Below, piece after piece: positions 2,298 through 45,916 of a DNA stretch of 64,000 nt (within the stretch, counting starts at the first letter, position 1; the number at the start of each line of letters is the position of its first letter). The DNA comes from Escherichia coli. Lineage in GTDB: Bacteria; Pseudomonadota; Gammaproteobacteria; Enterobacterales; Enterobacteriaceae. The DNA lies in the NCBI RefSeq assembly GCF_002854065.1, contig NZ_CP024154.1; one strand, 5' to 3'. The notes below the pieces were generated by a model. It was not told where the DNA came from. It was given only the letters and a program-made list of their open reading frames with translations, and made no database searches. The translations under genes and the position numbers were made by a program.

Positions 2298-2732
2298 ATG
2301 TACGGAACATGCGAAACGCTATGCCGGGAGCTGGCAGCAAAGTATCCGGGAGACACGCCGCTGATGCTGGTTATCTGGTCCCCGGAAGAAATTCAGGCCC
2401 TCGCTGACGGAATGGATATTTCCCTGTCCGATCATGAAATCAGGACTGTCCTGGCGCGCCTGGAGGACATCCCGGAAGACCAGCGGACTGAATCCGGTAT
2501 TTCTTCCGGTGCGGCGATGGAGATTATCAAATACGTGAGCGAAAACCGCCAGGTGACCGTCCCTGCTGAACTGCTGGCGTCCCTGATTCAGACCGCTGAA
2601 CAGGCACTGTGGAAACGTGAGTGGGCCGCCCGTGATAACGGCCTCGCCGTTCCGGAATGCGTCACCCGCCGACAGGCGGTGGTTAATCAGGCCCGCGCCC
2701 TGCTGAAAAACAACACACGCGAAAACGACTGA
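2298..2732 (+). CDS. hypothetical leading-region protein (145 aa), paralog of ORF 4435-4857
   Basis: SD GAGAAGGAGA upstream of ATG 2298; shares MY.T..E and R.VTVPA motifs with the 4435 product. Confidence 0.55.
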   Translation: MYGTCETLCRELAAKYPGDTPLMLVIWSPEEIQALADGMDISLSDHEIRTVLARLEDIPEDQRTESGISSGAAMEIIKYVSENRQVTVPAELLASLIQTAEQALWKREWAARDNGLAVPECVTRRQAVVNQARALLKNNTREND

Positions 2733-2776
2733 TGTTATCGCCGCCTCCGGGCGGCGATACAGGGAGACCATGAATC

Positions 2777-3547
2777 ATGAACGAAACGCTGAATGCACTG
2801 ATTTGTCGCCACGCCCGTAACCTGCTGCTGGCGCAGGGCTGGCCGGAAGAGACGGATGTTGACCAGCGAAATCCGAACTATCCGGGCTGGATCAGCATTT
2901 ACGTGCAGCTGGATGCGCCCCGGCTGGCGACGTTACTCGTTAACCGCCACGATGGCGTGCTGCCGCCGCACCTGGCCTCCGCCATTCAGAAACTGACCGG
3001 AACCGTGGCGGAACTTGTACTGTCCGGCAGCCAGTGGCAGGCGCTGCCGGTACTTCCGGCAGACGGAACGCAGGTGTCTTTCCCGTATGCCGGTGAATGG
3101 CTGACGGAGGAAGAAATCAGGGCCGTTCTTGATGCGGTGCACGATGCGGTACGCAGTGTCAGTTGCCGGGTGGCAGAAGATGCGCGGCGTATCAGGGCGG
3201 CGCTGACCACAACCGGTCAGACGTTGCTGACCCGCCAGACGCGCCGCTTTCGCCTGGTTGTGAAGGAAAGCGATTACCCCTGCTGGCTCGATGAAGACGA
3301 CGAAAACCTGCCCGTGGTGCTCGATGCCATCCTGAACCGGGGCGCTCGTTTTTCGTCGGTGGAAATGTATCTGGTCAGTGAGTGTGTGGAGCATATCCTG
3401 TCCAGTGGGCTGGCCTGCGATGTGCTGCGTATACCTGATGAACCGTCCCGTCGCTGGTTTGACCGGGATATTCTGCGGGAGGTGGTCCTGGAAGCCCGGA
3501 CTGAAATCCGCAGCATGGCGGATGCACTGGCGAAAATCCGGAAATGA
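2777..3547 (+). CDS. hypothetical leading-region protein (256 aa)
   Basis: Long ORF with SD AGGGAGA upstream; no recognised motif. Confidence 0.5.
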
Positions 3548-3619
3548 TGACGCTGGCGGGGAAAAATCTCCGCCTTTTCCAGCCGGTCCCCGGAAAGAGC
3601 AAAAGGATGTCGCCGCAGG

Positions 3620-3945
3620 CTCCGCTTTACCCGGCCATGCGGGGCATGGCCTTGTGGGTTTTCAGTTATGTGGCCTCAGCGCCGTGTGCGGGCTGTGCCG
3701 TGCCTCCATCGTAGCCGGGCTTCTGCGGGCGGGTTGCAAGGTAAGGTGAACCGCTGCGGTCACCCGGTCCCTCCTTCCCGTCTGCCGTGATTTTCCGGTC
3801 GTTCACCCGCTCAGATTTCGCGGTCTCACCCTTCAACTCCCGTCAGCCGTGCGCGTCAGGCTGCGGCTTCCCTTGCGCCCTTGCAACCCTGCAGGCCCGG
3901 CAAAGATGGAGGCACGGCACCGCCCGGTGTCGCGGAATATGTGAA
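3620..3945 (+). repeat. repeat family A copy 1: about 330-bp hairpin-rich element, putative single-strand promoter (Frpo/ssi-like)
   Basis: About 95 percent identical to 10567-10892; contains perfect hairpin GGCCATGC-GGG-GCATGGCC; ends about 20 nt before the klcA start. Confidence 0.6.
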
Positions 3946-3962
3946 CAACGGAGGAAAACATC

Positions 3963-4388
3963 ATGCAATATGCGAAACCTGTCACTCTGAACGTTGAAGA
4001 GTGCGACCGTCTGTCTTTTCTGCCTTACCTGTTTGGCCTGGATTTTCTGTATGCCGAAGCGTCTGTATACGCGCTGGCGAAAAAAATGATGCCGGAATAT
4101 GAAGGCGGATTCTGGCACTTCATCCGCCTGCCGGACGGTGGCGGTTACATGATGCCGGATGGCGACCGTTTCCACATGGTGAACGGTGCAAACTGGTTTG
4201 ACCGTACCGTGAGTGCTGATGCCGCAGGCATCATCCTTACCTCCCTTGTGATTAACCGCCAGTTGTGGCTGTACCACGACAGCGGGGATGCAGGGTTGAC
4301 ACACCTGTACAGGATGCGTGATGCGCAGTTGTGGAGCCACATCGAATTTCACCCCGAATGCAACGCGATTTACGCGGCACTTGACTGA
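3963..4388 (+). CDS. klcA: anti-restriction protein, KlcA/ArdB family
   Basis: 141-aa protein with KlcA/ArdB-like sequence and size; SD GGAGGA upstream; leading-region context. Confidence 0.75.
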
Positions 4389-4434
4389 TTAACGGACGGG
4401 GCGGCAATGCCGCCCCTGTAAAGGAGACGAGAAC

Positions 4435-4857
4435 ATGTACTGTACTGTTAAAGAAATCATCCGCGATGTACTGGATACAGACGTGCCGGACAGTGAATGC
4501 GTTTTTGCCGTGGTGCTGACCCGTGGGGATGTGCGTCACATAGCCCGGGACTGGAACCTGTCAGACGATGAGCTGGAAACCGTCATGCAGCGGCTGGACG
4601 ATGCTTTTGTATATGGCGCATGTGACAGAGTTGTTTCCGATATTGTCAATGAACTGATGGAAGAAAAGCGCGCCAGCCGTCATGTGACAGTCCCGGCGGT
4701 GATGCTGGAAAAAGTGATGGCGCTGGCAGGTAGTGAAATGAAGCGCCTGTATGCCGTCGGGAGTGAGAACGGGGGCGACGGTGACGCATTCGTCAGGGAG
4801 GAACTCGAAGCAATGGACGTTGTGTTGCAGGCGCTGGACGGGGAGACGATGTCATGA
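4435..4857 (+). CDS. hypothetical leading-region protein (140 aa), paralog of ORF 2298-2732
   Basis: SD AAAGGAGA upstream; shared MY.T..E, LSD.E..TV..RL.D and R.VTVPA motifs with the 2298 product. Confidence 0.5.
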   Translation: MYCTVKEIIRDVLDTDVPDSECVFAVVLTRGDVRHIARDWNLSDDELETVMQRLDDAFVYGACDRVVSDIVNELMEEKRASRHVTVPAVMLEKVMALAGSEMKRLYAVGSENGGDGDAFVREELEAMDVVLQALDGETMS

Positions 4858-5045
4858 ATATCAGCACAGAAACCCGCGAAATTCTGCGTAATTACAGGGC
4901 CGTGATTAATGCGCGGCGTCGTGAAATGGGGCAGAAACCGCTCACCACCGCGCAGATTGTTGATGAAATCTGCGATTTTGTGGCGAATCAGCAGGCGGTT
5001 TTCCTGGGCGGTCACTACATCCTTCAGGGCAGCAGAAACAGGTGA
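4854..5045 (+). CDS. hypothetical small protein (63 aa), start overlaps upstream stop (ATGA)
   Basis: ORF with translational coupling only. Confidence 0.35.
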   Translation: MNISTETREILRNYRAVINARRREMGQKPLTTAQIVDEICDFVANQQAVFLGGHYILQGSRNR

Positions 5046-5248
5046 TACAGGGGCAGGCGGTGGAGGCCGCCTGTCAGCCCGCGCGAAAACCCCTGGCAGG
5101 CTGACGCCTGCCGGAAACGAGGGGGGCAGCGCCTGCGGCGCTGCCGGCCCGGCTTTCCGGTCAGAAGGTAGTGTATGGCTGTATGCAGGGAACAGGAGTG
5201 ATATTCCGTGACACTGTCACCGTTTCTGGCTGTCTTTTATTGCGCCCA

Positions 5249-5745
5249 CTTCGGCTCCCGGCTGCCTGGCGGCATCCGGTCGTCAGGCCCGACTCCGACG
5301 GGCAGCTGCTGGCGCACCCGCCAGTCTCCGCCGAACCCGCTGGCGCGGTTTCGGGCTGCCGCTACGGTCCGATGCGTGAAAACCCGGCTTGCAGCGACCG
5401 TTCCGGTCGCGCCGCCCCTGTCGCGCCGTGACCTGCGCTCCCTGCACACCTGACGGTGTGTGAGGAAACTGCGCCTGATGGCGCAGCAGTCCTCCCTCCT
5501 GCCGCCACTCCTGCGGCCTGTTTCCCGCTGTGGACTTTCCGGGGGGCAGACGTAACCCCCTCCCGTTCCATCTGTCCAGGGTGAGATGCACCGGCCACAA
5601 AATTTTTAGCCATGAACCCGGCAAAAAATTTTGCGTCCGCCCCCGGACAGCTGCCCCGTGAGGCGGTAAACGGGCCCCCATCGGAAAGGTCCACTGCGGG
5701 GAGAAACCCCTGTGAAGTGGACGGCAGGAGGAGCTTTCGCTCCTC
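5249..5745 (+). repeat. repeat family B copy 1: about 500-bp hairpin-rich element, putative single-strand promoter/ssi
   Basis: Near-identical to 11592-12090 and partially to 14681-15010; multiple perfect hairpins (GCGACCG-TTC-CGGTCGC, ACACC-TGAC-GGTGT); ends about 70 nt before ssb. Confidence 0.6.
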
Positions 5746-5814
5746 TGAAGGGGCACATGAACGTCCCGTCGCCGGTATCCGGTTTATCTCACATCTTTCA
5801 GTCAGGAGGTTCTT

Positions 5815-6342
5815 ATGAGTGCACGTGGTATCAACAAGGTCATCCTCGTCGGGCGTCTGGGCAATGATCCGGAAGTCCGTTACATCCCCAACGGGGGCGC
5901 AGTGGCAAACCTGCAGGTGGCTACGTCAGAAAGCTGGCGCGACAAACAGACGGGGGAAATGAAGGAACAGACGGAATGGCACCGCGTGGTGCTGTTCGGC
6001 AAGCTCGCGGAAGTGGCTGGCGAATATCTGCGCAAGGGCGCGCAGGTCTACATCGAGGGGCAACTCCGTACCCGTAGCTGGGAAGATAACGGTATCACCC
6101 GTTACGTCACTGAAATTCTTGTTAAGACCACGGGCACCATGCAGATGCTGGGGAGTGCACCACAGCAGAACGCTCAGGCGCAACCGAAGCCTCAGCAGAA
6201 TGGGCAGCCACAGAGTGCTGACGCGACGAAAAAAGGTGGCGCGAAAACGAAAGGCCGTGGACGTAAGGCCGCGCAGCCCGAGCCTCAGCCGCAAACGCCG
6301 GAGGGGGAGGATTACGGGTTTTCAGACGACATCCCGTTCTGA
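5815..6342 (+). CDS. ssb: plasmid single-stranded DNA-binding protein
   Basis: OB-fold SSB N-terminus ([18 protein letters not shown]), Gly/Gln/Pro-rich linker and acidic C-terminal DDIPF tail; SD AGGAGG. Confidence 0.92.
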
Positions 6343-11410: not shown

Positions 11411-11591
11411 TTTACTCCCCCGCTCCGGCGGGGGTATGGCCTGCCAGGCCGCCGGAAAACCCTGGCAGGCTTACGCCTGCCTGAAATGCAGGAGGGCCGC
11501 GCCTGCGGCGCTGCCCTTCCTGCCCGTCATGGTGTGAGGCATTTTTCTGTTATGTCGTTTCTGTTGTTCTGATTTCCGGAGGCGGGGACAC

Positions 11592-12090
11592 CTTCGGCTC
11601 CCGGCTGCCTGGCGGCATCCGGTCGTCAGGCCCGACTCCGACAGGCAGCTGCTGGCGCACCCGCCAGTCTCCGCCGAACCCGCTGGCGCGGTTTCGGGCT
11701 GCCGCTACGGTCCGATGTCTGAAAAACCAGGCTTGCAGCGACCGTTCCGGTCGCGCCGCCCCTGTCGCGCCGGAAACGGCGCTCCCTGCACACCTGACGG
11801 TGTGTAAGGCCACTGCGCCTGATGGCGCAGTTGTCTGCCCTTCCGCCGCCCCCCCTGCGGCCTGTTTCCCCGCTGTGGACTTTCCGGGGGCTGAAGCGGC
11901 CACAACACGTTTCAGCCGTCCAGGGGAGAGATGTACCAGCCACAAAACTTTTTGCCGCAGGCGTCAAAAACTTTTGCGTCTGCCCCCGGACAACTGCCCC
12001 GTGCCGTGGCAGTCGCTGCCCTATCGGAAAGGTCCACTGCGGGGAGAAACCCCGAAGAAGTGGACGGCAGAAGGGGCTTTCGCCCCTCCG
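11592..12090 (+). repeat. repeat family B copy 2, putative single-strand promoter
   Basis: Near-identical to 5249-5745; ends about 50 nt before ORF 12143. Confidence 0.6.
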
Positions 12091-12142
12091 GGGGAGCAAC
12101 CGGTCGGCCCGGCGACCTGATTCAGCAGAAGGAGACGTTTTC

Positions 12143-12936: not shown

Positions 12937-13000
12937 TTAACCCTTGCCGTCTGCCTGTGCAGGCGGCAGGATACGTTCAGACATCTCACCAGGAGGAACC

Positions 13001-13951
13001 GTGAGTAAGAAGAAAAACACCACAACGCCCACGCCGCATGATGCCGCGTTCCGGTCGTTCCTGGCGAATCCCGACGTTGCCAGGGATTTTCTGGAACTGC
13101 ATCTTCCTGCGGAGCACCGGCAGTTGTGCGACCTGTCCACGCTGAAGCTGGAACCCGCCACCTTTGTTGAGCCGGACCTGCATCAGTACGCCAGCGATAT
13201 CCTCTGGAGCGTGAAAACCACCGGGGGTGAAGATGGTTATGTTTATACGCTCATCGAGCACCAGAGCACAGAAAATCTGTACATGCCTTTTCGCATGTTA
13301 CGCTACAGTGTGGCGGCGATGCAGAGACATCTGGAGCAGCACAAAACGTTGCCACTGGTGATTCCGGTGCTGTTCTATCACGGTGAGCGCAGCCCGTACC
13401 CGTACAGCATGAACTGGCTGGACTGTTTTGAGAATCCGGCACTTGCGGCTAAAATATACACAAAGCCGTTTCCGCTGGTTGATATCACTGTCGTTGATGA
13501 CAATGAAATCATGAACCATCGCCGGATGGCCGCACTGACGCTGCTGATGAAGCATATCCGCCATCGTGACATGATGGAGCTGCTGGACAAACTCCCGCAG
13601 GTCATGGTGGAAATTTCAGATGAACAGGTGCGTGTTCTGATTCATTACATCGTTAACGCAGGGGACTCTGTATCACCGGAATTTATGCGGGCGCTGGCTG
13701 AGCGTCTGCCGCAGCATGAGGATAAACTGATGACTATCGCAGAACGTCTTGAGCAAAAAGGTCGCCAGGAAGGCAGGATGGAAGGACGCATGGAAGGACG
13801 CATGGAAGGACGCATGGAAGGACGCATGGAAGGAGCGCTTGAAAAAGCCCTGGCTATTGCGTGCCAGCTTCAGAAAATGGGGATGACGCCGGAGCAGATT
13901 AAGCAGGCTACCGGACTTTCCGATGACGAACTGAAGAACATCACTCACTGA
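13001..13951 (+). CDS. Rpn-family (YhgA-like, transposase_31) PD-(D/E)XK recombination-promoting nuclease
   Basis: N-terminal YhgA-like motifs (HDAAFRSF, ASDILW, YTLIEHQS); SD CAGGAGGA before GTG 13001; C-terminal tail carries (EGRM)n repeat; terminator hairpin at about 13963-13990. Confidence 0.75.
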   Translation: MSKKKNTTTPTPHDAAFRSFLANPDVARDFLELHLPAEHRQLCDLSTLKLEPATFVEPDLHQYASDILWSVKTTGGEDGYVYTLIEHQSTENLYMPFRMLRYSVAAMQRHLEQHKTLPLVIPVLFYHGERSPYPYSMNWLDCFENPALAAKIYTKPFPLVDITVVDDNEIMNHRRMAALTLLMKHIRHRDMMELLDKLPQVMVEISDEQVRVLIHYIVNAGDSVSPEFMRALAERLPQHEDKLMTIAERLEQKGRQEGRMEGRMEGRMEGRMEGRMEGALEKALAIACQLQKMGMTPEQIKQATGLSDDELKNITH

Positions 13952-14013
13952 TGAGAACCACAAAGCCCGGCAAAATGCCGGGTTTTTTTGTCAGCAGGAG
14001 CAGAGCAAACAGC

Positions 14014-14196
14014 ATGACGATTGCAGAACGTCTTATACAGAAAGGTTTCGACGAAGGTTTTAAGAAAGGTGCGCTTGAAGTGGCGCGGGAAGCAGCCTGC
14101 CGGCTGCGGGATATGGGCTGGACGCCGGAACGGATTCAGGAGGCAACCGGACTTTCCGGTGAAGAACTGAAAAAGCTGTTTCCTGATGAGCAGTAG
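14014..14196 (+). CDS. free-standing paralog of the Rpn C-terminal tail domain (60 aa)
   Basis: MTIAERLIQKG...TPERIQEATGLSGEELKKLF aligns with the Rpn tail MTIAERLEQKG...TPEQIKQATGLSDDELKNI; weak SD; hairpin terminator downstream. Confidence 0.45.
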   Translation: MTIAERLIQKGFDEGFKKGALEVAREAACRLRDMGWTPERIQEATGLSGEELKKLFPDEQ

Positions 14197-14226: not shown

Positions 14227-14478
14227 TCACACATTCCCTGCCGTTTCCCCCAGTTCATTTTCCAGTCGCCTGATGATATCTGCCTTACGCATCCCCTGCA
14301 TGTGAGGCAGCAGGTCACGGACTGAAAGTGCCTGGGTGGTCCTCCAGACGGTGACATCCACCTGTTCCGCATTTTCCCAGGCGTGCCATGTTCTCTGTGT
14401 CACGCCAAATTCTCTGGCCGCTTTTTCGCGTGACCAGAGCATGCTTTTTCGCCAGATTCGCAGTTCCCAGCCGGTCAT
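14227..14478 (-). CDS. helix-turn-helix (XRE/Cro-like) transcriptional regulator (83 aa)
   Basis: HTH signature SREKAAREFGVTQRTWHAWE; AT-rich upstream region with GTGAA-N5-TTCAC inverted repeat. Confidence 0.55.
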   Translation of the reverse strand: MTGWELRIWRKSMLWSREKAAREFGVTQRTWHAWENAEQVDVTVWRTTQALSVRDLLPHMQGMRKADIIRRLENELGETAGNV

Positions 14479-14680
14479 AAAACACCTTTGAAAAAGTGAA
14501 AAAACTTCACTTTATTTTATCATCATAGTCACCAAGTCAGCGCGATAAATAAGAGTGAAAAAGTAAAGAAATTTCATTTTTTTTAGTTGTAGGTGTCGTG
14601 CTGTTTTCTCTGTTTTCACCTGTGCGGGAGTGGGCGTCAGTGACCACCACATGCCATTGTTGTGCCGTCGTTTTTCTTCA

Positions 14681-15010
14681 GTCGCGCCGGATGCGGCGCT
14701 CCCTGCACACCTGACGGTGTGTAAGGCCACTGCGCCTGATGGCGCAGCTGTCTCTGCCTGTCTGCCGCCGCACTGCGGCCTGTTCTCCGCAGACGGACTT
14801 TCCGGGGGTGCATACACGACCACATCCCGTTTCAGTCGTCCAGGGGAGAGATGTACCAGCCACAAAACTTTTTACCGCAGGCGTCAAAAACTTTTGCGTC
14901 TGCCCCCGGACAACTGCCCCGTGACGTGGTGAGCGTCCCCCGTCGGAAAGGTCCACTGCGGGGAAATCCCCGAAGACCCGGACGGCAGAAGGAGCTTCGC
15001 TCCTCCGGGA
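14681..15010 (+). repeat. repeat family B copy 3 (5'-truncated), putative single-strand promoter
   Basis: Matches the 3' two-thirds of copies B1/B2; ends about 45 nt before ORF 15057. Confidence 0.55.
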
Positions 15011-15056
15011 AATGACCTGGCTGACCCGGCAGTCGTGACGATGAGGAGACAATGTG

Positions 15057-15905
15057 ATGAATCAGACTTTACCCACTGCTGACCTGAATACTGCCGGCAC
15101 GACAGATGTTATTCTGTCTGTGGCTATCGACCGCATCATAGCGCAGCGTAACGAAGGTATTGCACTGTTCATGCAGGCGATGGAATGCCTGGCGACAGCG
15201 CGCAGGATTCTGCTCGATGCTTCCGGTGACATTTTTCTCTACGGGTTTGAAGACTGCGTGACTGACTCCGTTCGGTGCATGGATAAACCGGAAGAAGCAA
15301 AAAAGAATATCACCCGTCTTGCCGACCGGAAAATCTGGGATCGCCTGATGACGGATACTGGCATGTACACCTTCATGAGTTCATGCCAGCGTGATGAGTG
15401 GAACAGCCAGCTGATGAGCGACACCTGTCCTGAAATCACCCTGGACAATGTACTGGCAACTTTTCGCTATCTGAATGCCAGCAAGATGCGGACGTTTGAA
15501 CAGGGACTGATTGATGTCTGGCGGAAATTGTCATGGGATTACAGAACCAATAATCCCTGCCGTCTGGGCAAGAAAATCATTATTGAAAACCTGCTGTACC
15601 GCTGGAGTAACGGGCGTGTGACGCTGGACTGCAGCGGACGGGAGGCACTGGATGACCTGGTATGTCCGTTTTATCTACTGGAGGGACGCAACGTTCCTGA
15701 CTTCAGGAACAGCATCGGGGCGCAGTATGGTGAATATCTCGGGAACGGCGATAATGTCGGTAAGCTGTTAGAAGGGGAATATTTTACGGTGCGTGGCTAC
15801 CAGAAAGGGACCGTACACATTGTCTTTAAGCGTCCTGACCTTGTTGAAAAACTGAATGATATTATTGCACGGCATTATCCTGGTGCATTGCCGCCACGAG
15901 TCTGA
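15057..15905 (+). CDS. hypothetical protein (283 aa); oriT-proximal plus-strand gene of the leading region
   Basis: SD GAGGAG 7 nt upstream of ATG 15057; directly behind repeat B3; terminator hairpin at about 15911-15945. Confidence 0.55.
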   Translation: MNQTLPTADLNTAGTTDVILSVAIDRIIAQRNEGIALFMQAMECLATARRILLDASGDIFLYGFEDCVTDSVRCMDKPEEAKKNITRLADRKIWDRLMTDTGMYTFMSSCQRDEWNSQLMSDTCPEITLDNVLATFRYLNASKMRTFEQGLIDVWRKLSWDYRTNNPCRLGKKIIIENLLYRWSNGRVTLDCSGREALDDLVCPFYLLEGRNVPDFRNSIGAQYGEYLGNGDNVGKLLEGEYFTVRGYQKGTVHIVFKRPDLVEKLNDIIARHYPGALPPRV

Positions 15906-15989
15906 TTAAACAGAAAAGCCCTGGTATTTATGCCGGGGCTTTTTTTCTGTAATCATCATAATCTCAGAACACGATGTGACATTGTCACA

Positions 15990-16331
15990 TCAATTGTTGT
16001 TCATATCGATGCCATCTTTCCTGCCTGAATCTGTCTTTTTAGGTGCTGTTTTAGAGGAAGAACGGCGGGATGGTTTTTTCGATTCTGCTTCCCGAATAAT
16101 GTCACGAAGTGCTTTCTCTCCTACTTCATACCCTGCATTTTTGAGCGTGTCACGAACATCTGCCAGTGTATAACCCTTTGTCCTTACCAGGACAATGATG
16201 TCATCACGAATGGCATCAAGAAAATCACGCAATGTTTTCCGTTGAGCGGTGAGGTCCGGCAATTCCGATAAGGCAGCTTTTGCCAGCTGGATGTCATCAT
16301 CTGAGTAAAATTTTTTAGAAGCCATTGGCAC
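15990..16331 (-). CDS. hypothetical small basic protein next to oriT (possible DNA-binding protein)
   Basis: ORF of 113 aa with Lys/Arg/Ser-rich C-terminus; stop codon lies within a perfect 20-bp palindrome. Confidence 0.4.
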   Translation of the reverse strand: MPMASKKFYSDDDIQLAKAALSELPDLTAQRKTLRDFLDAIRDDIIVLVRTKGYTLADVRDTLKNAGYEVGEKALRDIIREAESKKPSRRSSSKTAPKKTDSGRKDGIDMNNN

Positions 16332-16439
16332 TTTCTCTCTGTTTTATGTTGAAGCCTGATTTTATCACCAAAACTGCCCCTGGCAGGGCTGCGCCCTGCC
16401 TCTGCCGTCTGCATAAGACTATGATGCACAAAAATAACA

Positions 16440-16545
16440 GGCTATAATTGACCGAAAAACGGGACAGGATGTGGGAATGTCGGACCGCGCACGCGCACTC
16501 AGACATTCCCCACCTGGTCAGGGCTTTGCCCCGACACCCCGGTAA
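16440..16545. other. oriT: origin of transfer (oriT) with inverted repeats, immediately upstream of nikA
   Basis: GGGAATGTC...GACATTCCC inverted repeat flanking a GC-rich core, plus GGTCAGGGCTTTGCCCCGAC; position and orientation relative to nikA-nikB and the leading region. Confidence 0.65.
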
Positions 16546-16555
16546 GGAGCAGACC

Positions 16556-16888
16556 ATGAGTGAGAAGAAAACCCGAACGGGCAGTGAGAACAGGAAGAGA
16601 ATTGTAAAATTCACGGCGAGATTCACGGAGGATGAGGCTGAAATCGTAAGAGAAAAAGCGGAGTCAAGTGGACAGACGGTTTCAACATTTATACGAAGCT
16701 CTTCACTGGATAAGGTGGTTAACTGCCGTACTGACGACCGTATGATTGATGAGATTATGCGTCTTGGCCGCCTTCAGAAGCATCTGTTTGTGGAGGGAAA
16801 ACGCACTGGTGATAAGGAGTATGCAGAGGTTCTTGTTGCCATTACTGAATATGTCAATGCTCTGCGAAGAGACTTAATGGGACGCTGA
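16556..16888 (+). CDS. nikA: relaxosome accessory protein NikA (ribbon-helix-helix)
   Basis: 110-aa product immediately upstream of the relaxase; SD AAGGAG. Confidence 0.85.
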   Translation: MSEKKTRTGSENRKRIVKFTARFTEDEAEIVREKAESSGQTVSTFIRSSSLDKVVNCRTDDRMIDEIMRLGRLQKHLFVEGKRTGDKEYAEVLVAITEYVNALRRDLMGR

Positions 16889-16899
16889 GATAACTGCTG

Positions 16900-19611
16900 A
16901 TGAATGCCATTATTCCGCACAAAAGACGTGACGGCAGGTCTTCCTTTGAAGACCTGATTGCGTACACGTCTGTGCGGGATGATGTGCAGGAAAATGAGCT
17001 CACAGAAGACAGCGAAATCAAGAGTGATGTCCCTCACCGCAACCGTTTCAGACGGCTTGTTGATTATGCAACACGCCTGCGTAACGAAAAATTTGTCTCC
17101 CTGATTGATGTGATGAAAGACGGCAGTCAGTGGGTAAATTTCTATGGCGTAACCTGTTTCCATAACTGCAATTCACTGGAAACAGCTGCTGAAGAGATGC
17201 AGTACAAGGCGGACAAAGCTGTTTTTTCCCGTAATGATACAGACCCCGTTTTCCACTACATTCTTTCCTGGCCTGCGCATGAAAGCCCGCGTCCTGAGCA
17301 GCTTTTTGACTGTGTGCGTCACACACTGAAATCTCTTGAACTCTCAAAACATCAGTACGTGGCTGCCGTTCATACGGACACGGATAATCTGCATGTGCAT
17401 GTTGCCGTGAATCGTGTACATCCTGAAACTGGTTATATTAACTGGCTTTCCTGGAGCCAGGAAAAACTCAGCCGTGCATGTCGTGAACTTGAACTTAAGC
17501 ACGGATTCGCGCCTGATAATGGCTGCTTTGTGCATGCACCCGGCAACCGTATTGTGCGCAAAACAGCGCTGGTACGTGAGCGCCGTAATGCCTGGCGACG
17601 CGGGAAAAAGCAGACGTTCAGGGAATATATTGCGCAGATGTCGATTGCCGGGCTGCGTGAAGAGCCCGCACAAGACTGGTTGTCTTTGCATAAACGGCTG
17701 GCCAGTGATGGTCTGTATATCACGATGCAGGAAGGGGAACTGGTGGTGAAGGATGGCTGGGACAGAGCGCGGGAAGGTGTTGCACTCAGTTCGTTCGGAC
17801 CGTCATGGACAGCTGAAAAACTGGGGCGGAAACTGGGGGAATATCAGCCTGTACCGACAGATATTTTCAGTCAGGTGGGGACACCCGGTCGTTATGATCC
17901 GGAAGCCATAAACGTTGATATCCGGCCGGAAAAAGTGGCAGAAACGGAGAGTCTGAAACAGTACGCCTGCCGTTATTTTGCCGAACGCTTACCGGAAATG
18001 GCGAGAAATGGTGAGCTGGAAAGTTGCCTGGATGTGCACAGAACTCTGGCAAAGGCTGGATTATGGATGGGGATCCAGCACGGGCATCTGGTACTGCATG
18101 ATGGATTTGATAAACAACAGACACCAGTACGTGCAGACAGTGTGTGGCCGTTAATGACGCTGGATTATATGCAGGATCTGGATGGTGGATGGCAGCCTGT
18201 ACCGAAGGATATTTTTACTCAGGTTATACCCGGAGAACGATTCCGGGGACGTAATCTTGGTACTCAGGCTGTCAGTGATTACGAATGGTATCGTATGCGG
18301 ATGGGGACAGGTCCACAGGGAGCAATAAAGCGCGAACTGTTTTCTGATAAGGAAAGTCTGTGGGGGTACACGACTGTTCAGTGTGAGTCGTTGATTGAAG
18401 ATATGATCGCGGGCGGGAATTTCAGCTGGCAGGCGTGCCATGAGATGTTTGCGCGTAAAGGGCTTATGTTGCAGAAACAGCATCATGGTCTTGTGATTGT
18501 GGATGCGTTTAATCATGAGCTCACACCAGTGAAGGCCAGCAGTATCCACCCGGATTTGACGTTATCCAGGGCTGAGCTGCAGGCAGGGCCATTTGAGATT
18601 GCAGGTGCAGATATATTTGAACGGGTGAAGCCTGAATGTCGCTACAATCCGGAACTTGCTGCCAGCGATGAAGTGGAACCCGGCTTCCGGCGCGATCCTG
18701 TACTGCGTCGTGAACGCCGTGAAGCCCGTGCAGCTGCGCGGGAAGATTTGCGCGCGCGTTATCTTGCATGGAAGGAGCACTGGCGTAAACCCGACTTACG
18801 TTACGGAGAACGGTTACGGGAAATTCATGCTGCCTGCCGTCGGCGCAAGGCGTATATCCGTGTGCAGTTCCGGGATCCACAATTGCGTAAGCTGCATTAC
18901 CATATTGCGGAAGTGCAGCGTATGCAGGCGCTGATCAGGCTGAAGGAGAGTGTGAAGGAAGAGCGGTTGTCACTGATTGCGGAGGGTAAGTGGTATCCTT
19001 TGTCCTACCGGCAGTGGGTGGAGCAACAGGCGGTACAGGGAGACAGAGCTGCATTATCACAGTTACGTGGCTGGGATTATCGTGATCGTCGCAAAGACAA
19101 GCGACGAACAACGAATGCCGACCGCTGCGTGATTCTCTGTGAACCGGGAGGAACTCCACTTTATGAAGACACTGGCGTTCTCGAAGCCCGTCTGCAGAAA
19201 GATGGCAGTGTGCGTTTTCGTGATCGGAGGAATGGCGAGTTAGTCTGTGTGGATTATGGGGACCGTGTGGTGTTCTACCATCATCAGGACAGAAATGAAC
19301 TGGTGGATAAGCTGAATCTGATTGCTCCTGTATTGTTTGATCGTGAGCCAGGAATGGGTTTTGAACCGGAAGGCTCATATCAACAGTTTAATGATGTATT
19401 TGCGGAAATGGTGGCCTGGCATAATGCAGCTGGAATAACCGGAAATGGACACTTTGTAATCAGCCGCCCGGATGTGGATTTACATCGTCAGCGTAGTGAA
19501 CAGTACTACCACGAATATATCAGGCAACAGAAAAGCATATCCGGGGGGCATGGCGCATCTTATGCTCCAGTTCAGGATAATGAGTGGACGCCACCATCAC
19601 CTGGAATGTAG
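16900..19611 (+). CDS. nikB: conjugative relaxase NikB (MobP family)
   Basis: 903 aa; histidine-triad motif HTDTDNLHVHVAVNRV in the N-terminal relaxase domain; follows nikA; terminator hairpin at about 19631-19664. Confidence 0.9.
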   Translation: MNAIIPHKRRDGRSSFEDLIAYTSVRDDVQENELTEDSEIKSDVPHRNRFRRLVDYATRLRNEKFVSLIDVMKDGSQWVNFYGVTCFHNCNSLETAAEEMQYKADKAVFSRNDTDPVFHYILSWPAHESPRPEQLFDCVRHTLKSLELSKHQYVAAVHTDTDNLHVHVAVNRVHPETGYINWLSWSQEKLSRACRELELKHGFAPDNGCFVHAPGNRIVRKTALVRERRNAWRRGKKQTFREYIAQMSIAGLREEPAQDWLSLHKRLASDGLYITMQEGELVVKDGWDRAREGVALSSFGPSWTAEKLGRKLGEYQPVPTDIFSQVGTPGRYDPEAINVDIRPEKVAETESLKQYACRYFAERLPEMARNGELESCLDVHRTLAKAGLWMGIQHGHLVLHDGFDKQQTPVRADSVWPLMTLDYMQDLDGGWQPVPKDIFTQVIPGERFRGRNLGTQAVSDYEWYRMRMGTGPQGAIKRELFSDKESLWGYTTVQCESLIEDMIAGGNFSWQACHEMFARKGLMLQKQHHGLVIVDAFNHELTPVKASSIHPDLTLSRAELQAGPFEIAGADIFERVKPECRYNPELAASDEVEPGFRRDPVLRRERREARAAAREDLRARYLAWKEHWRKPDLRYGERLREIHAACRRRKAYIRVQFRDPQLRKLHYHIAEVQRMQALIRLKESVKEERLSLIAEGKWYPLSYRQWVEQQAVQGDRAALSQLRGWDYRDRRKDKRRTTNADRCVILCEPGGTPLYEDTGVLEARLQKDGSVRFRDRRNGELVCVDYGDRVVFYHHQDRNELVDKLNLIAPVLFDREPGMGFEPEGSYQQFNDVFAEMVAWHNAAGITGNGHFVISRPDVDLHRQRSEQYYHEYIRQQKSISGGHGASYAPVQDNEWTPPSPGM

Positions 19612-26117: not shown

Positions 26118-26431
26118 GATTCCGGATCGAAGTTGGTAGCCCTGACCGGAAGATAACTGCCTATAACTGACTATGAAATAATACGGCTGAAATAATATTT
26201 CTGCAAGCACAGTATAAGTATATACTCGGTGTGTCAGCTTTGAGGCACGTTCTTTCCGGCATATCGTTCACCGGGATGAACAGGTTGCAAGTCCTGGCCA
26301 AAACATCAGGTGGTGCTGGTTTTGGTGCTCTGGCCGGAGAAGAACTGTCTATAACTGACACTATAGAAAACGTGGCGACAGGCAATGTAAGGGCAAACCA
26401 CGGTGTTCTTTCTCCATTGATGGAGAAGCGG

Positions 26432-26527
26432 ATGATTAACCTGTTAATCATCGTTCTCAGGGCGGTTGTTGCTGTGGCTAACGCAGTGATAGCTCTCCTG
26501 GAACTGATCCGGGAACTGGTTGACTGA
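26432..26527 (+). CDS. small hydrophobic peptide (31 aa), candidate type I toxin-like membrane peptide
   Basis: SD GGAGAA 5 nt upstream of ATG 26432; MINLLIIVLRAVVAVANAVIALLELIRELVD; hairpin terminator downstream. Confidence 0.35.
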   Translation: MINLLIIVLRAVVAVANAVIALLELIRELVD

Positions 26528-44588: not shown

Positions 44589-45916
44589 GGATAACTTTCC
44601 TGTTGTATGCCGTAGCGTTGCTGCATTTCATTCTGTTTACGGAGGACCGCCGCCCGGATCCTGTCAGAGGCCTGGTGCTCTGCCTCCGCCTGGGTGAGCG
44701 GACGTCCGGAGGAGGGGGACTCAGAAGGGGCAGTGCCGGAGGACGGCGTACTGATATCGTTGCTCATGACCGGCTCAACAAACAGAATGGAGACGACCTC
44801 GCCCCGTGATACTGTCACCTGACGGTAAGGTTCGCTCTCTGCCTGGCGGGTCAGCAGCTGGCTGCCCCGTTCGGCCATGCCACCTGCAATGACGCCGGCC
44901 AGCGCCTCTCCATCAGGCATTCCCACCCTGCCGGTAATACTGCCGTAGTTTCCCTGAAGGATCTGTGTGTTGGCGTCTTTGTAAAGACTTCCGACATTGC
45001 CCACCCCGCCAAGTACGGACGGCAGAACGATGTGCTTAAACCAGCGGTGGTTCACGTCGCTGGCCACGGTTGACATTCCTGTTCGTTCATTCAGGGCATA
45101 TGCATTGACCTTCAGAAACATGCCCCGCCACATCATCCGGTCAAAGTGGATATCCATTCCCTGACCTGCGAGTCTGGCGTCCTGGCTGTAGAGAACGGCT
45201 CCGGCCCATGGCCCGGCAGGTACGGAGGCCACCACGCGGGAGACCGCATTGTCAGAGTCCACTGCGGTGTCGATGTAAGCCGGTACGCGGGTCAGTGCCG
45301 GTATCAGCTGGATCCCCTGACGTGTAGCCGGTGTTGCCAGACTCGTCTCCTGCAGACGGGGATGCTGTGATGTAACGGTACCGGACGGTGACGCATGAGG
45401 GGCTGTCCCGGGCGCGCCGGTGGTGCTCCACATGGCTGCTGCCACTATCGGTGGCCGGGCATCCTGATGCTGTGTGTTGATACGGGCAAGCAGTTTCTGT
45501 AATGCCTCACGCCGTTTTTCCCGGGCCGTCTGATCTTCCTGAGGAGGGGATGCGTTTTGCCCGGAAGTGCCTGACTGATCATCGGGGGGATTATCCCTTT
45601 TCTGATCGTTTCCGGTATCGGTATCCAGTCCCCGGGGCAGACTGGCGATAAACGTCTCGTTATTACGTAACGCTTCTGCAGCACCACGTTCATTGTCAGC
45701 CCGCAGTAAATCCCGGTAGTGCTGTGTCTCCATCACGTTCCGTCCGCCGCCGGACGTTGTGCTGTTGATATTGACTGACGAGAGCGATGCAGCGTTTTCG
45801 GGGGACAGCCAGGTGAGCAGCAGGTATCCGCCCCCGATAATAATCACGCCCCCCATAACCAGCAGGGCTGACAGCTTTTTGCCGGATTTTGCGGCTGTGT
45901 CCTGTTCTTCGCTCAT
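44585..45916 (-). CDS. TraO-like (DotG/VirB10-like) channel protein
   Basis: 443 aa; N-terminal TM segment, Pro/Gln-rich linker, conserved C-terminal domain. Confidence 0.6.
   Translation of the reverse strand: MSEEQDTAAKSGKKLSALLVMGGVIIIGGGYLLLTWLSPENAASLSSVNINSTTSGGGRNVMETQHYRDLLRADNERGAAEALRNNETFIASLPRGLDTDTGNDQKRDNPPDDQSGTSGQNASPPQEDQTAREKRREALQKLLARINTQHQDARPPIVAAAMWSTTGAPGTAPHASPSGTVTSQHPRLQETSLATPATRQGIQLIPALTRVPAYIDTAVDSDNAVSRVVASVPAGPWAGAVLYSQDARLAGQGMDIHFDRMMWRGMFLKVNAYALNERTGMSTVASDVNHRWFKHIVLPSVLGGVGNVGSLYKDANTQILQGNYGSITGRVGMPDGEALAGVIAGGMAERGSQLLTRQAESEPYRQVTVSRGEVVSILFVEPVMSNDISTPSSGTAPSESPSSGRPLTQAEAEHQASDRIRAAVLRKQNEMQQRYGIQQESYP

What the first reader, a model, noticed from the sequence alone, without database searches (positions are those of the whole stretch)
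15973..16545. oriT region with nikA-proximal inverted repeats and a separate perfect 20-bp palindrome
The oriT candidate (16440-16545) has GGGAATGTC/GACATTCCC inverted repeats around a GC-rich core. About 450 bp further into the leading side, a perfect palindrome GATGTGACAATTGTCACATC (15973-15992) overlaps the stop codon of the oriT-adjacent gene and may be a protein-binding site or terminator.
Basis: partly seen in the sequence, partly recalled or inferred. Interest (0 to 1): 0.3.

Follow-up and report, generated by a model that had tools for sequence, protein, structure and literature searches.

The report
Plasmid transfer origin beside a matS site
The region is the well-known transfer origin (oriT) of an IncI-complex conjugative plasmid, and the separate "palindrome" next to it is letter-for-letter the E. 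coli consensus matS, the docking site of the chromosome-terminus protein MatP. A second such site lies 10.8 kb away in the same leading region, and this appears not to have been described for these plasmids.

Summary
The window is an I-complex (IncK2/Z-like) plasmid.

**oriT.** Positions 16459-16541 are a textbook R64-type oriT:
- a nick region, minus strand ACATCCTG|TCCCGT
- the inverted repeat GGGAATGTC.../...GACATTCCC, whose arms covary across the family
- a distal conserved hairpin
- nikA and nikB downstream

All of this is already known.

**The palindrome.** It was mis-transcribed. It is 19 bp (9-1-9), GATGTGACATTGTCACATC, at 15973-15991, not 20 bp. It overlaps the yggA stop codon by 2 nt. 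It is not the terminator; that is the GC hairpin at 15914-15943.

**matS identity.** The 13-bp core at 15976-15988, GTGACATTGTCAC, is exactly the published consensus E. coli matS (GTGACRNYGTCAC, bound by MatP).
- A second exact matS sits at 5208-5220, upstream of ssb.
- Two exact sites compare with 0.02-0.04 expected in 64 kb.
- The whole 86-kb relative p86 has just these two.
- At least 1875 public plasmids keep the first core intact in context, and at least 1510 keep the second.
- Distant relatives of the same transfer family have none.

**Best reading.** These are host MatP docking sites bracketing the leading region. Binding and its consequence are inferred, not shown.

The parts
15914..15943 (.). 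Bidirectional intrinsic terminator between the convergent genes ygfB (DUF4942, 15054-15905, +) and yggA. It is a GC-rich hairpin, AAAAGCCCTGGTAT / ATGCCGGGGCTTTT, flanked by an A-run and a T-run.
   Evidence: Inverted repeats I3, I4 and I9. It dominates the RNA fold of the minus strand, z = -5.6. Only sub-threshold Rfam matches to terminator-bearing sRNAs and leaders fall here.
15973..15991 (.). It is really 19 bp: GATGTGACA-T-TGTCACATC. It overlaps the yggA TGA stop codon by 2 nt.
   Evidence: (I6). The outermost base is G->A in the mosaic plasmid pJD053 while the 13-bp core stays intact.
15976..15988 (.). matS core GTGACATTGTCAC, the exact E. coli consensus MatP-binding site. It lies about 482 bp from the predicted nick, on the leading side.
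   Evidence: [quoted passage not shown] It fits GTGACRNYGTCAC, Kd 8 nM (PMC6907758). The core is intact in context in >=1875 PLSDB records.
5208..5220 (.). Second exact matS, GTGACACTGTCAC, in the non-coding region upstream of ssb (5815-6342). It sits in a ~60-bp stretch that is absent from the paralogous Frpo-like copy at ~11.5 kb.
   Evidence: The core is intact in context in >=1510 PLSDB records. Its flanks are unrelated to those of the first site.
44806..44818 (.). One-mismatch matS-like site, GTGATACTGTCAC, inside traO (44585-45916, -). The homologous position is a perfect matS in another I-complex lineage.
   Evidence: The perfect variant GTGACAGTGTCAC is in traO of pRM10042-1 and 168 other records. 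The window's variant is in 272 records.
15990..16325 (-). yggA, 111 aa, with a helical N-terminal ~80 aa and a basic tail. It is the first gene of the leading region and a homologue of pCTX-M3 Orf35, which represses the nikA-nikB-traH operon.
   Evidence: ORF. Annotated as yggA in pCH56. tblastn finds IncL/M and other MOBP/MPF_I homologues; alignment. Orf35 function comes from PMC6112013. No Pfam or NCBIfam family. The AF2 model is all-helical, pLDDT 74, with no significant fold match. There is a weak profile hit to the RpoN C-terminal HTH domain, E = 0.015.
16359..16386 (-). Predicted sigma-70 promoter of yggA: CTGCCA, 16-nt spacer, TG-TAAAAT.
   Evidence: Consensus scan only.
16382..16400 (.). 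Perfect 8-bp inverted repeat GGCAGGGC-tgc-GCCCTGCC overlapping the predicted yggA -35. It is a candidate operator.
   Evidence: I11. The Enterobacter plasmid L004 has the compensatory variant GGCAGTGC-tcc-GCACTGCC at the same place.
16443..16448 (+). TATAAT, the likely -10 of the nikAB ('oriT operon') promoter. Transcription would start at about the nick region and run through the repeats.
   Evidence: The sequence shows it directly. A TATAAT/CATAAT/TAGAAT-like hexamer is kept at this position in the family alignment. No good -35 was found, so this is an inference.
16459..16472 (-). Nick region. The minus strand reads ACATCCTG|TCCCGT. The predicted nick is on the minus strand between 16465 and 16464, 8 nt from the proximal repeat. 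The minus strand is the transferred strand, and its 5' end leads toward yggA.
   Evidence: This block is nearly invariant in 17 distinct oriTs. Mutating the equivalent ACATCTTGT of pCTX-M3 abolished oriT function; the authors assigned it by similarity to R64 (PMC7440800). The exact nick position follows the MOBP consensus YATCCTG|Y and the R64 mapping, recalled from Furuya & Komano 1991, which I could not read here.
16473..16510 (.). NikA-type inverted repeat. Repeat A (proximal) is 16473-16490 and repeat B is 16493-16510. The perfect outer arms are GGGAATGTC / GACATTCCC.
   Evidence: I1. Across 12 oriTs the arms take at least 6 different sequences yet stay 9/9 to 18/19 complementary. The R64-like pCH56 shows the classical 17-bp repeat with one mismatch.
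16511..16541 (.). Distal conserved block of oriT, CACCTGGTCAGGGCTTTGCCCCGACACCCCG. It contains the 8-bp hairpin GTCAGGGC / GCCCCGAC (16517-16524 / 16528-16535).
   Evidence: It is nearly invariant in the family, with one compensatory change (GGAC/GTCC). It marks the right edge of the oriT copy carried by 1.5-kb Col plasmids, which match window 16456-16541.
16556..16888 (+). nikA, 110 aa, the ribbon-helix-helix relaxosome accessory protein.
   Evidence: Pfam NikA-like PF21983, E = 3e-19; NCBIfam MobA, E = 5e-31.
16900..19611 (+). nikB, 903 aa, the MOBP relaxase.
   Evidence: ORF. Annotated as a relaxase (NikB) in homologous records typed MOBP.

Best explanation
The interval holds two different things.

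(1) 16459-16541 is the R64-type origin of transfer of an I-complex plasmid.
- NikA binds the repeat next to the nick region.
- NikB cuts the minus strand at ACATCCTG|T, between 16465 and 16464.
- The strand then enters the recipient 5'-first toward yggA, so the repeats and nikAB enter last.

(2) The palindrome 482 bp into the leading side is a matS site. In double-stranded form its 13-bp core GTGACATTGTCAC is bound by a dimer of the host protein MatP.
- With the second matS 10.8 kb further on (5208-5220), it brackets most of the leading region (ssb, psiB, psiA, ardA, ygfB).
- The likely consequence is what MatP does on the chromosome terminus. It locally unloads MukBEF and ties the DNA to the Ter/division-site territory.
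- That would influence where the plasmid sits and when sister copies separate, in the donor or just after establishment in a recipient.

Shown here: the sequence identity to the consensus, the statistical excess, and the persistence across the plasmid group.
Inferred: MatP occupancy, which is very likely for an exact consensus site in an enteric host, and any benefit to the plasmid.

The palindrome is not the yggA terminator and is probably not a NikA or YggA site.
For: oriT:
- The best match is IncK2/Z pCP55-141k at 99.8%, and 2103 plasmid records match.
- The family alignment shows a conserved nick block, a covarying inverted repeat and a conserved distal block.
- Mutation of the equivalent nick region kills oriT in pCTX-M3 (PMC7440800).
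- nikA carries the PF21983 domain.
- 1.5-kb relaxase-less Col(MG828) plasmids carry only this ~86-bp segment.

matS:
- A literature string search with the core retrieved the MukBEF-MatP paper, which names GTGACATTGTCAC 'the consensus E. coli matS'. The consensus GTGACRNYGTCAC has Kd 8 nM.
- There are two exact consensus sites in 64 kb against 0.017-0.044 expected under Markov orders 0-5; Poisson P(>=2) is 1.5e-4 to 9e-4.
- The two sites have unrelated flanks, so they are not copies of one repeat.
- The complete 86,147-bp relative p86 has exactly these two exact sites.
- Another lineage, pRM10042-1, also has two: this one plus one in traO.
- Core intact in context: >=1875 of about 1992-2071 records for the yggA site and >=1510 of about 1696 for the ssb site. 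A neighbouring spacer 41-mer scores 1149.
- The one variant seen, in pJD053, changes a base outside the 13-bp core.
- About 146 kb of non-I-complex MOBP/MPF_I plasmid DNA fetched here has no exact matS.
- Hosts of the matching plasmids are Escherichia, Salmonella, Shigella and Klebsiella. MatP and its matS-contacting residues are conserved in these (PMC11724359).
Against: - No binding data exist, and none could be produced here.
- All I-complex plasmids are 95-100% identical in this stretch. Persistence in about 1900 records therefore reflects few independent events and is weak evidence of selection. The 41-mer counts are also only a crude measure.
- The palindrome extends 3 bp beyond matS on each side (chance about 1/64), and further imperfectly (GAACA...TGTTC). 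MatP is not known to require this, and it fits a hairpin function.
- The ssb-side site is missing in one lineage, pRM10042-1.
- Distant relatives of the transfer system have no matS near yggA, so there is no independent recurrence.
- There is no chromosome-terminus-like context: no dif-like site and no KOPS convergence.
- The identification came from a search across all literature.
- In vivo looping between matS sites is disputed (PMC8053113; PMC6907758).
Confidence: 0.62

Rival explanations
1. The palindrome acts as a nucleic-acid hairpin rather than a duplex protein site. It could be a 3'-end stabiliser or processing hairpin of the yggA mRNA, a back-up terminator or insulator against read-through from ygfB into yggA and oriT, or a hairpin in the transferred single strand. 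On this view the match to matS is a coincidence.
For: - It folds as an 8-9 bp stem, extended by GAACA/UGUUC, directly at the stop codon. The 116-nt region folds at -37.6 kcal/mol with z = -5.6, though most of that energy is the neighbouring terminator.
- As ssDNA the local fold is -9.5 kcal/mol with z = -2.8.
- The + strand scan calls it terminator-like, with tail AATTGTTGTT.
- The palindrome extends 3 bp beyond the matS core on each side.
Against: - There is no U-run on the yggA strand, and only 4 G-C pairs.
- A strong bidirectional terminator already lies 30 bp away.
- No compensatory change has been seen. The only variant breaks the outer pair.
- It does not explain a second exact matS core at 5208-5220, whose symmetry stops at 6 bp and which would make a poor hairpin.
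- No Rfam family matches.
- Distant yggA homologues have no equivalent hairpin at the stop codon.
Confidence: 0.13
2. The palindrome is an operator for a plasmid-encoded dimeric DNA-binding protein: YggA itself, the XRE-type YgeA, or NikA. This is what the first reader proposed testing.
For: - YggA is a small basic helical protein whose IncM homologue represses the nikAB-tra operon.
- It has a weak HTH-like profile hit.
- The site abuts yggA.
- TGTCAC half-sites recur at 16100 and 16148, inside yggA (D3).
Against: - The expected target of YggA is the nikA promoter/oriT interval, which contains no GTGAC..GTCAC motif.
- That interval has its own covarying 8-bp repeat at 16382-16400, a better operator candidate.
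- NikA's site is the oriT repeat, whose sequence is unrelated.
- YgeA has its own palindrome by its promoter, AAAGTGAA-n5-TTCACTTT at ~14493-14513.
- YggA homologues in other plasmids have no such palindrome downstream.
- The exact identity to the host matS consensus would be unexplained.
Confidence: 0.08
3. The sites are fortuitous. The matS-like sequences arose by chance in an ancestral I-complex backbone and persist only because the whole backbone is young and nearly clonal. MatP may or may not bind, with no consequence for the plasmid.
For: - The region is 95-100% identical over about 2000 records, so conservation is uninformative.
- One lineage lacks the ssb-side site, and the traO site comes and goes.
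- There is no recurrence in distant families.
- There is no Ter-like context.
- A published survey found matS enrichment only in replicons >300 kb (PMC11724359).
Against: - Two to three independent exact consensus positions sit in an ~86-kb backbone where 0.03-0.06 are expected.
- Both widespread sites fall in the ~17-kb leading region.
- The neighbouring spacer is more polymorphic than the matS-centred 41-mer.
Confidence: 0.17

Closest known systems
oriT of IncI1 plasmid R64 / ColIb-P9 (nikA-nikB 'oriT operon', MOBP relaxase family; globally similar to IncP RP4 oriT)
   Same: - The order of parts is the same: nick region, 8-nt spacer, repeat A, repeat B, distal 8-bp repeat, then nikA and nikB.
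- The nick block and the distal block are nearly identical to the R64-like pCH56.
- The leading region begins with yggA.
   Different: - The repeat arms are GGGAATGTC.../...GACATTCCC instead of the R64-type GCAATTGTAATA.../...TATTACAATTGC.
- nikA diverges from IncI1 nikA, and homology to most IncI1 records stops at the nikA start.
- This is the K/Z-type specificity variant, not a new kind of oriT.
matS, the 13-bp MatP-binding site of the E. coli Ter macrodomain (Mercier et al. 2008)
   Same: - 15976-15988 equals the published consensus letter for letter.
- 5208-5220 fits GTGACRNYGTCAC.
- The plasmid's hosts are enterics that encode MatP.
   Different: - It is not in a chromosomal terminus. There are two sites 10.8 kb apart on an ~86-kb conjugative plasmid, next to oriT, instead of 23 sites spread at about 35-kb intervals around dif.
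- There is no dif-like site and no KOPS convergence.
- Binding has not been tested.
matS sites reported on large secondary replicons of Enterobacteriaceae (R27; megaplasmids >300 kb; PMC11724359)
   Same: These are also plasmid-borne matS, detected by sequence in an enterobacterial replicon, with a statistical excess over random expectation.
   Different: - In that survey most plasmids had none. Enrichment was a property of replicons >300 kb and went with FtsK-dependent Xer sites opposite the origin.
- Here the replicon is ~86 kb, has its own recombinase, and carries the sites in the conjugative leading region.
- I-complex plasmids are not mentioned in the text or in the supplements held.
Orf35 of IncM plasmid pCTX-M3 (repressor of the nikA-nikB-tra operon)
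   Same: - YggA aligns with Orf35-type proteins over the N-terminal ~78 residues (38.5% tblastn identity to the IncL/M copy).
- It occupies the same position, divergent from nikA across oriT.
   Different: - YggA's own role is untested; the IncM authors say so.
- In a transposon-insertion screen of an IncI1 plasmid, yggA was classed with the genes not required for transfer.

Membership tests
R64/IncI1-type (MOBP) oriT | Nick region matching the MOBP consensus YATCCTG|Y on the transferred strand | tested here: met
   The minus strand of 16459-16473 reads CACATCCTGTCCCGT. The block is conserved in 17 distinct oriTs. The equivalent ACATCTTGT is essential in pCTX-M3 (PMC7440800).
R64/IncI1-type (MOBP) oriT | Inverted repeat 8 nt from the nick, on its 5' side on the transferred strand (the accessory-protein site) | tested here: met
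   Repeat A starts at 16473, 8 nt (ACATCCTG) from the predicted nick. The arms covary across 12 oriTs, staying 9/9 to 18/19 complementary with at least 6 different arm sequences.
R64/IncI1-type (MOBP) oriT | Adjacent genes for a ribbon-helix-helix accessory protein (NikA) and a MOBP relaxase (NikB) | tested here: met
   nikA matches PF21983 at E = 3e-19 and NF041264 at E = 5e-31. The 903-aa ORF is annotated as a relaxase, typed MOBP, in homologous records.
R64/IncI1-type (MOBP) oriT | Site- and strand-specific nicking, and mobilisation of a cloned fragment | not testable with these tools
   Indirect support only: natural 1.5-kb Col(MG828) plasmids with no relaxase carry just this ~86-bp segment and are typed mobilizable.
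matS (MatP-binding site) | 13-bp palindrome GTGACRNYGTCAC | tested here: met
   15976-15988 is GTGACATTGTCAC, which equals the published consensus. 5208-5220 is GTGACACTGTCAC.
matS (MatP-binding site) | Occupied by MatP in vitro or in vivo | not testable with these tools
   No ChIP or EMSA data for this plasmid were available. This is inferred from the exact consensus and the reported Kd of 8 nM.
matS (MatP-binding site) | Member of the cluster of sites that defines the chromosomal Ter macrodomain around dif | tested here: not met
   The site is on a plasmid. Complete relatives have no dif-like sequence (<=8 mismatches) and no KOPS convergence. It can therefore be called a matS-consensus site, not a Ter matS.
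matS (MatP-binding site) | Host encodes MatP | not tested
   Hosts of matching plasmids are Escherichia, Salmonella, Shigella and Klebsiella. MatP conservation in Enterobacteriaceae is taken from PMC11724359.
Intrinsic (rho-independent) terminator | G+C-rich stem-loop immediately followed by a U-run on the transcribed strand | tested here: not met
   On the yggA (minus) strand the stem is followed by GUGUUCUGAG and has 4/8 G-C pairs. Only the + strand gives a weak consensus match. The true terminator is at 15914-15943.
CRP-binding site | TGTGA-N6-TCACA spacing (from established knowledge of the CRP consensus) | tested here: not met
   The sequence is TGTGA-CATTG-TCACA, a spacer of 5.

The most novel reading that the evidence does not exclude
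I-complex conjugative plasmids (IncI1, I-gamma, K, B/O, Z) have acquired and maintain consensus matS sites in their leading region, one of them about 480 bp from the nick. By doing so they recruit the host's MatP and plug into the Ter/MukBEF/divisome system. The recruitment would position the plasmid or delay separation of its copies, or shield the newly entered leading region from MukBEF-type SMC activity during establishment. It would be a case of a transmissible plasmid borrowing a chromosome-organisation signal.
Probability: 0.35. Interest if true: 0.7.

Novelty: new member of a known kind. Interest (0 to 1): 0.48.

Why it matters
The oriT itself adds nothing new. It is the K/Z-type variant of a classical origin.

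The matS identity is the useful result.
- It turns an anonymous palindrome into a precise, cheap hypothesis: does MatP bind I-complex plasmids, and does that affect their stability, localisation, transfer or establishment?
- I-complex plasmids are major carriers of ESBL and other resistance genes in E. coli and Salmonella, so a host factor that touches their leading region is of practical interest.
- It would also extend the reported picture, in which matS matters only for megaplasmids (PMC11724359), to ordinary ~90-kb conjugative plasmids.
EMSA should use MatP, not NikA or YggA.

Tried and rejected
- **Terminator reading.** Rejected, because the real terminator is 30 bp away and the palindrome lacks a U-run on the yggA strand.
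- **Known RNA family.** Nothing in Rfam above noise.
- **CRP site.** Wrong spacing.
- **Fur, LexA and lac-type operators.** Compared from memory; no fit.
- **Analogous palindrome downstream of distant yggA homologues.** None was found in 9 plasmid loci. No matS was found in 7 further loci from species-representative genomes, about 112 kb.
- **Common repeat origin of the two matS sites.** Rejected, because the flanks are unrelated. The ssb-side site lies in a stretch missing from the paralogous Frpo-like copy.
- **Mini-terminus architecture (dif-like site, KOPS convergence, GC-skew switch at the sites).** Not found in two complete relatives.
- **YggA characterisation.**
  - No Pfam or NCBIfam family.
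  - The AF2 model has only moderate confidence (pLDDT 74).
  - Foldseek against the PDB gives only meaningless calmodulin-like hits, E > 0.2.
  - There is a weak RpoN-domain profile hit.
  - So nothing links YggA to the palindrome.
- **My first placement of the nick.** I put it in the right-hand conserved block (CCCTG|A). This was wrong, and I corrected it after comparing the family alignment with the pCTX-M3 mutagenesis.
- **Primary R64 oriT papers.** Furuya & Komano could not be read.
- **Per-plasmid matS counts.** They are not in the held supplements of PMC11724359.
- **Population-level test of selection on the cores.** Only crude 41-mer hit counts were possible. The hits used to view flanking variation around the ssb-side site were selected for an intact core, so that alignment is circular as a conservation test.
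Full report
**What the window is.** A 1.1-kb query around the finding matches 2103 plasmid records. The best is IncK2/Z plasmid pCP55-141k at 99.8%. Nearly all are MOBP/MPF_I conjugative plasmids of Escherichia, Salmonella, Shigella and Klebsiella. The local gene order is as follows:
- ygfB (DUF4942, 15054-15905, +)
- yggA (15990-16325, -)
- a 230-bp intergenic region
- nikA (16556-16888, +)
- nikB (16900-19611, +)

nikA carries the NikA-like domain (PF21983, E = 3e-19).

**Checking the observation.** The oriT repeats are as described. GGGAATGTC is at 16473-16481 and GACATTCCC at 16502-16510. They extend to 18-nt arms that are 83% complementary. The palindrome was mis-read: the sequence is GATGTGACATTGTCACATC, 19 bp, 9-1-9, at 15973-15991, not a 20-mer. 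It overlaps the yggA TGA by two bases. A perfect 9-bp-arm palindrome is only mildly unusual. The window has 7 such palindromes against about 1.5 expected, and most of them are GC-rich terminators.

**The oriT.** I aligned the intergenic regions of the window with an R64-like I-gamma plasmid, a 1.5-kb Col plasmid and nine more distant MOBP/MPF_I plasmids (Enterobacter, Erwinia, Serratia, Klebsiella, Yersinia, IncL/M). The alignment shows three kinds of column.
- **A near-invariant left block**, ACGGGACAGGATGTG. Its minus strand, CACATCCTGTCCCGT, carries the MOBP nick motif.
- **An inverted repeat** whose arms differ between plasmids but stay complementary. There are at least 6 arm sequences, 9/9 to 18/19 paired. 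The R64-like copy shows the classical 17-bp repeat with one mismatch.
- **A near-invariant right block**, CTGGTCAGGGC-nnn-GCCCCGACACCC. It forms an 8-bp hairpin with one compensatory change.

I first placed the nick in the right block, and that was wrong. The equivalent of the left block (ACATCTTGT) was assigned as the nick region of pCTX-M3 by similarity to R64, and mutating it abolished oriT function (PMC7440800).

The predicted nick is therefore on the minus strand between 16465 and 16464, 8 nt from repeat A. The exact bond is taken from the MOBP consensus and from my recollection of the R64 mapping; the primary papers were not available. The minus strand leads toward yggA, which the literature calls the first gene of the R64 leading region (PMC6112013). 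The repeats and nikAB enter last.

Small relaxase-less Col(MG828) plasmids carry only window-equivalent 16456-16541, with the window's arm type. This marks the functional unit. All of this is established biology. The window simply has the K/Z-type specificity variant, with different arms and a diverged nikA; most IncI1 matches stop at the nikA start.

**The palindrome is not the terminator.** Between the convergent ygfB and yggA lies a GC-rich hairpin (15914-15943) with an A-run on one side and a T-run on the other. This is a bidirectional terminator. The palindrome lies between that terminator and the yggA stop codon. On the yggA strand it has 4/8 G-C pairs and is followed by GUGUUCUGAG. Only the + strand gives a weak terminator-like match. 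Rfam finds nothing.

**What the palindrome is.** Searching the window for the half-site gave a second exact copy of GTGACA-N-TGTCAC at 5208-5220 and a one-mismatch copy at 44806. That is 3 matches against 0.18 expected, and 0 of 100 shuffles reach 3. [quoted passage not shown] A review lists the MatP motif as GTGACRNYGTCAC with Kd 8 nM. So 15976-15988 is the consensus matS letter for letter, and 5208-5220 (GTGACACTGTCAC) also fits it.

**Is that more than chance?**
- Under Markov models of order 0-5 trained on the window, 0.017-0.044 exact matS are expected in 64 kb. Two are seen; Poisson P is 1.5e-4 to 9e-4.
- The two sites have unrelated flanks. The ssb-side site sits in a ~60-bp stretch missing from the paralogous Frpo-like element at 11.5 kb.
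- The complete 86,147-bp IncK2/Z relative p86 contains exactly these two exact sites and no other.
- pRM10042-1, from another lineage, also has two. One is the yggA-side site. The other is inside traO, where the window has the one-mismatch version.
- About 146 kb of non-I-complex plasmid DNA from the same transfer family has none.

One caveat applies. The second, independent site is what makes the identification solid.

**Persistence across plasmids.** I used 41-mers centred on each site. Any 28-base megablast seed in such a query must span the whole core. The counts are:

| 41-mer | Records with the core intact in context | Comparison |
|---|---|---|
| yggA-side matS | >=1875 | about 1992-2071 records hold the region |
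| ssb-side matS | >=1510 | about 1696 records hold the region; includes one IncFIA Klebsiella plasmid |
| Adjacent non-coding spacer (control) | 1149 | none |
| traO, perfect version | 169 | none |
| traO, the window's version | 272 | none |

In the mosaic IncX1/IncY plasmid pJD053, which captured only yggA-oriT-nikAB, the junction lies about 20 bp left of the palindrome. Its single difference is in the outermost palindrome base, outside the 13-bp core.

This is consistent with constraint but is not proof. The whole region is 95-100% identical across the group, so few independent events are sampled. My alignment of ssb-side variants was drawn from hits selected for an intact core.

**What is known about matS on plasmids.** A survey of 981 enterobacterial secondary replicons reports several things (PMC11724359 and its preprint):
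- Most plasmids contain no matS.
- Replicons >100 kb tend to have one.
- Significant enrichment appears above 300 kb, together with FtsK-dependent Xer sites. R27 has one matS near such a site.

I-complex plasmids are not mentioned in the text or in the held supplements. No held paper links MatP with IncI1 in a relevant way. The two complete relatives have no dif-like site, and their KOPS motifs do not converge on the matS sites. The chromosome-style FtsK/Xer logic therefore does not obviously apply.

**Mechanism, with its status.**
- *Shown:* exact consensus, statistical excess, persistence, and placement of both widespread sites in the leading region, 482 bp and 11.25 kb from the predicted nick.
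- *Inferred with good confidence:* MatP dimers occupy these sites on double-stranded plasmid DNA in enteric hosts.
- *Inferred weakly:* the consequence. By analogy with Ter, this would be local MukBEF unloading and association with the Ter/septal territory (PMC8669397; PMC6907758). That would affect plasmid positioning or the timing of copy separation, or the fate of the leading region soon after entry.
- Bridging of the two sites by MatP tetramers is possible in vitro but disputed in vivo.

**Rivals.**
- *Hairpin function.* This could be mRNA 3' stabiliser, insulator or ssDNA hairpin. It is supported by the 3-bp symmetric extension beyond matS (chance about 1/64) and by fold energies. It does not explain the second site, and there is no covariation.
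- *Operator for YggA, YgeA or NikA.* YggA is a helical, basic protein homologous to the IncM repressor Orf35. Its expected target is the nikA promoter interval, which lacks the motif. That interval has its own covarying 8-bp repeat at 16382-16400. YggA homologues elsewhere have no such palindrome. Structure prediction and fold search were uninformative.
- *Fortuitous sites in a young, near-clonal backbone.* This remains a serious possibility for function, though not for the sequence identity.

**Verdict.** The oriT is already known. The palindrome is real, was mis-transcribed by one base, and is best explained as a plasmid-borne consensus matS. That makes it a new member of a known kind, in an undescribed place. 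It yields a sharp and easily tested hypothesis.

Noticed in passing
L003 (NZ_CP102064.1, pC31, 1546 bp) 396-481; equivalent to window 16456-16541: A 1.5-kb Col(MG828) plasmid with no relaxase and no nikA carries a copy of just the oriT core. It has the window's (K/Z-type) repeat arms, and they are even better paired (12/12). It looks like an oriT-only hitch-hiker specific for this NikA type.
   Followed up: partly
window 5084-5771, 11453-12114, 14681-14929: There are three paralogous GC-rich non-coding elements in the leading region, upstream of ssb, of a gene block near 12 kb, and of ygfB. They resemble the Frpo/ssi single-strand promoter elements of conjugative leading regions. Part of the element (5249-5300) matches >5000 plasmids, including IncF.
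   Followed up: partly
window 16382-16400: A perfect 8-bp inverted repeat, GGCAGGGC-tgc-GCCCTGCC, overlaps the predicted yggA -35. An Enterobacter plasmid has GGCAGTGC-tcc-GCACTGCC at the same place, which is a compensatory double change. It is a candidate operator (YggA autoregulation?) or a transferred-strand hairpin.
   Followed up: partly
window 16465-16468 with 16513-16516: Within oriT, CAGG in the nick block pairs with CCTG just beyond repeat B. Serratia and Yersinia similis plasmids have CCAG...CTGG/CCGG, so both sides changed. This suggests an outer stem that encloses the NikA repeat in the single strand.
   Followed up: no
window 16550 onward (nikA) versus 15850-16550: Most IncI1/I-gamma records match the window at about 95% up to the nikA start and then drop out, and the oriT repeat arms differ in step. 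NikA and its repeat appear to be exchanged as a specificity module on an otherwise shared backbone. At least four arm types exist within the I-complex (window, pCH56, pO145, pRM10042-1).
   Followed up: partly
window 44806-44818 (inside traO, 44585-45916, minus strand): The window has a one-mismatch matS, GTGATACTGTCAC. The homologous traO position is a perfect matS, GTGACAGTGTCAC, in pRM10042-1 and 168 other plasmids. That lineage lacks the ssb-side site, so both lineages end up with two exact sites.
   Followed up: partly
L005 (NZ_CP095788.1, pJD053-144K) ~2500-5389: An IncX1/IncY mosaic plasmid has captured only the palindrome-yggA-oriT-nikA-nikB module from an IncI1 plasmid. The left junction lies about 20 bp outside the palindrome.
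   Followed up: no
window 13645-13830 (inside the Rpn-family ORF 12944-13951): The coding sequence contains a tandem repeat that gives (EGRM)n in the protein, GRQEGRMEGRMEGRMEGRMEGRMEG. A shorter related ORF follows at 13951-14196 (direct repeats D7 and D10).
   Followed up: no
window 14493-14513: The palindrome AAAGTGAA-aaaac-TTCACTTT lies just upstream of the XRE-type regulator gene ygeA (14227-14478, minus strand). It is probably that regulator's own operator.
   Followed up: no
window 26431-26452 and 16935-16956: There are other perfect palindromes that are not GC-rich terminators: GATGATTAACCTGTTAATCATC (10-bp arms) and CAGGTCTTCCTTTGAAGACCTG, the latter inside the 5' end of nikB.
   Followed up: no
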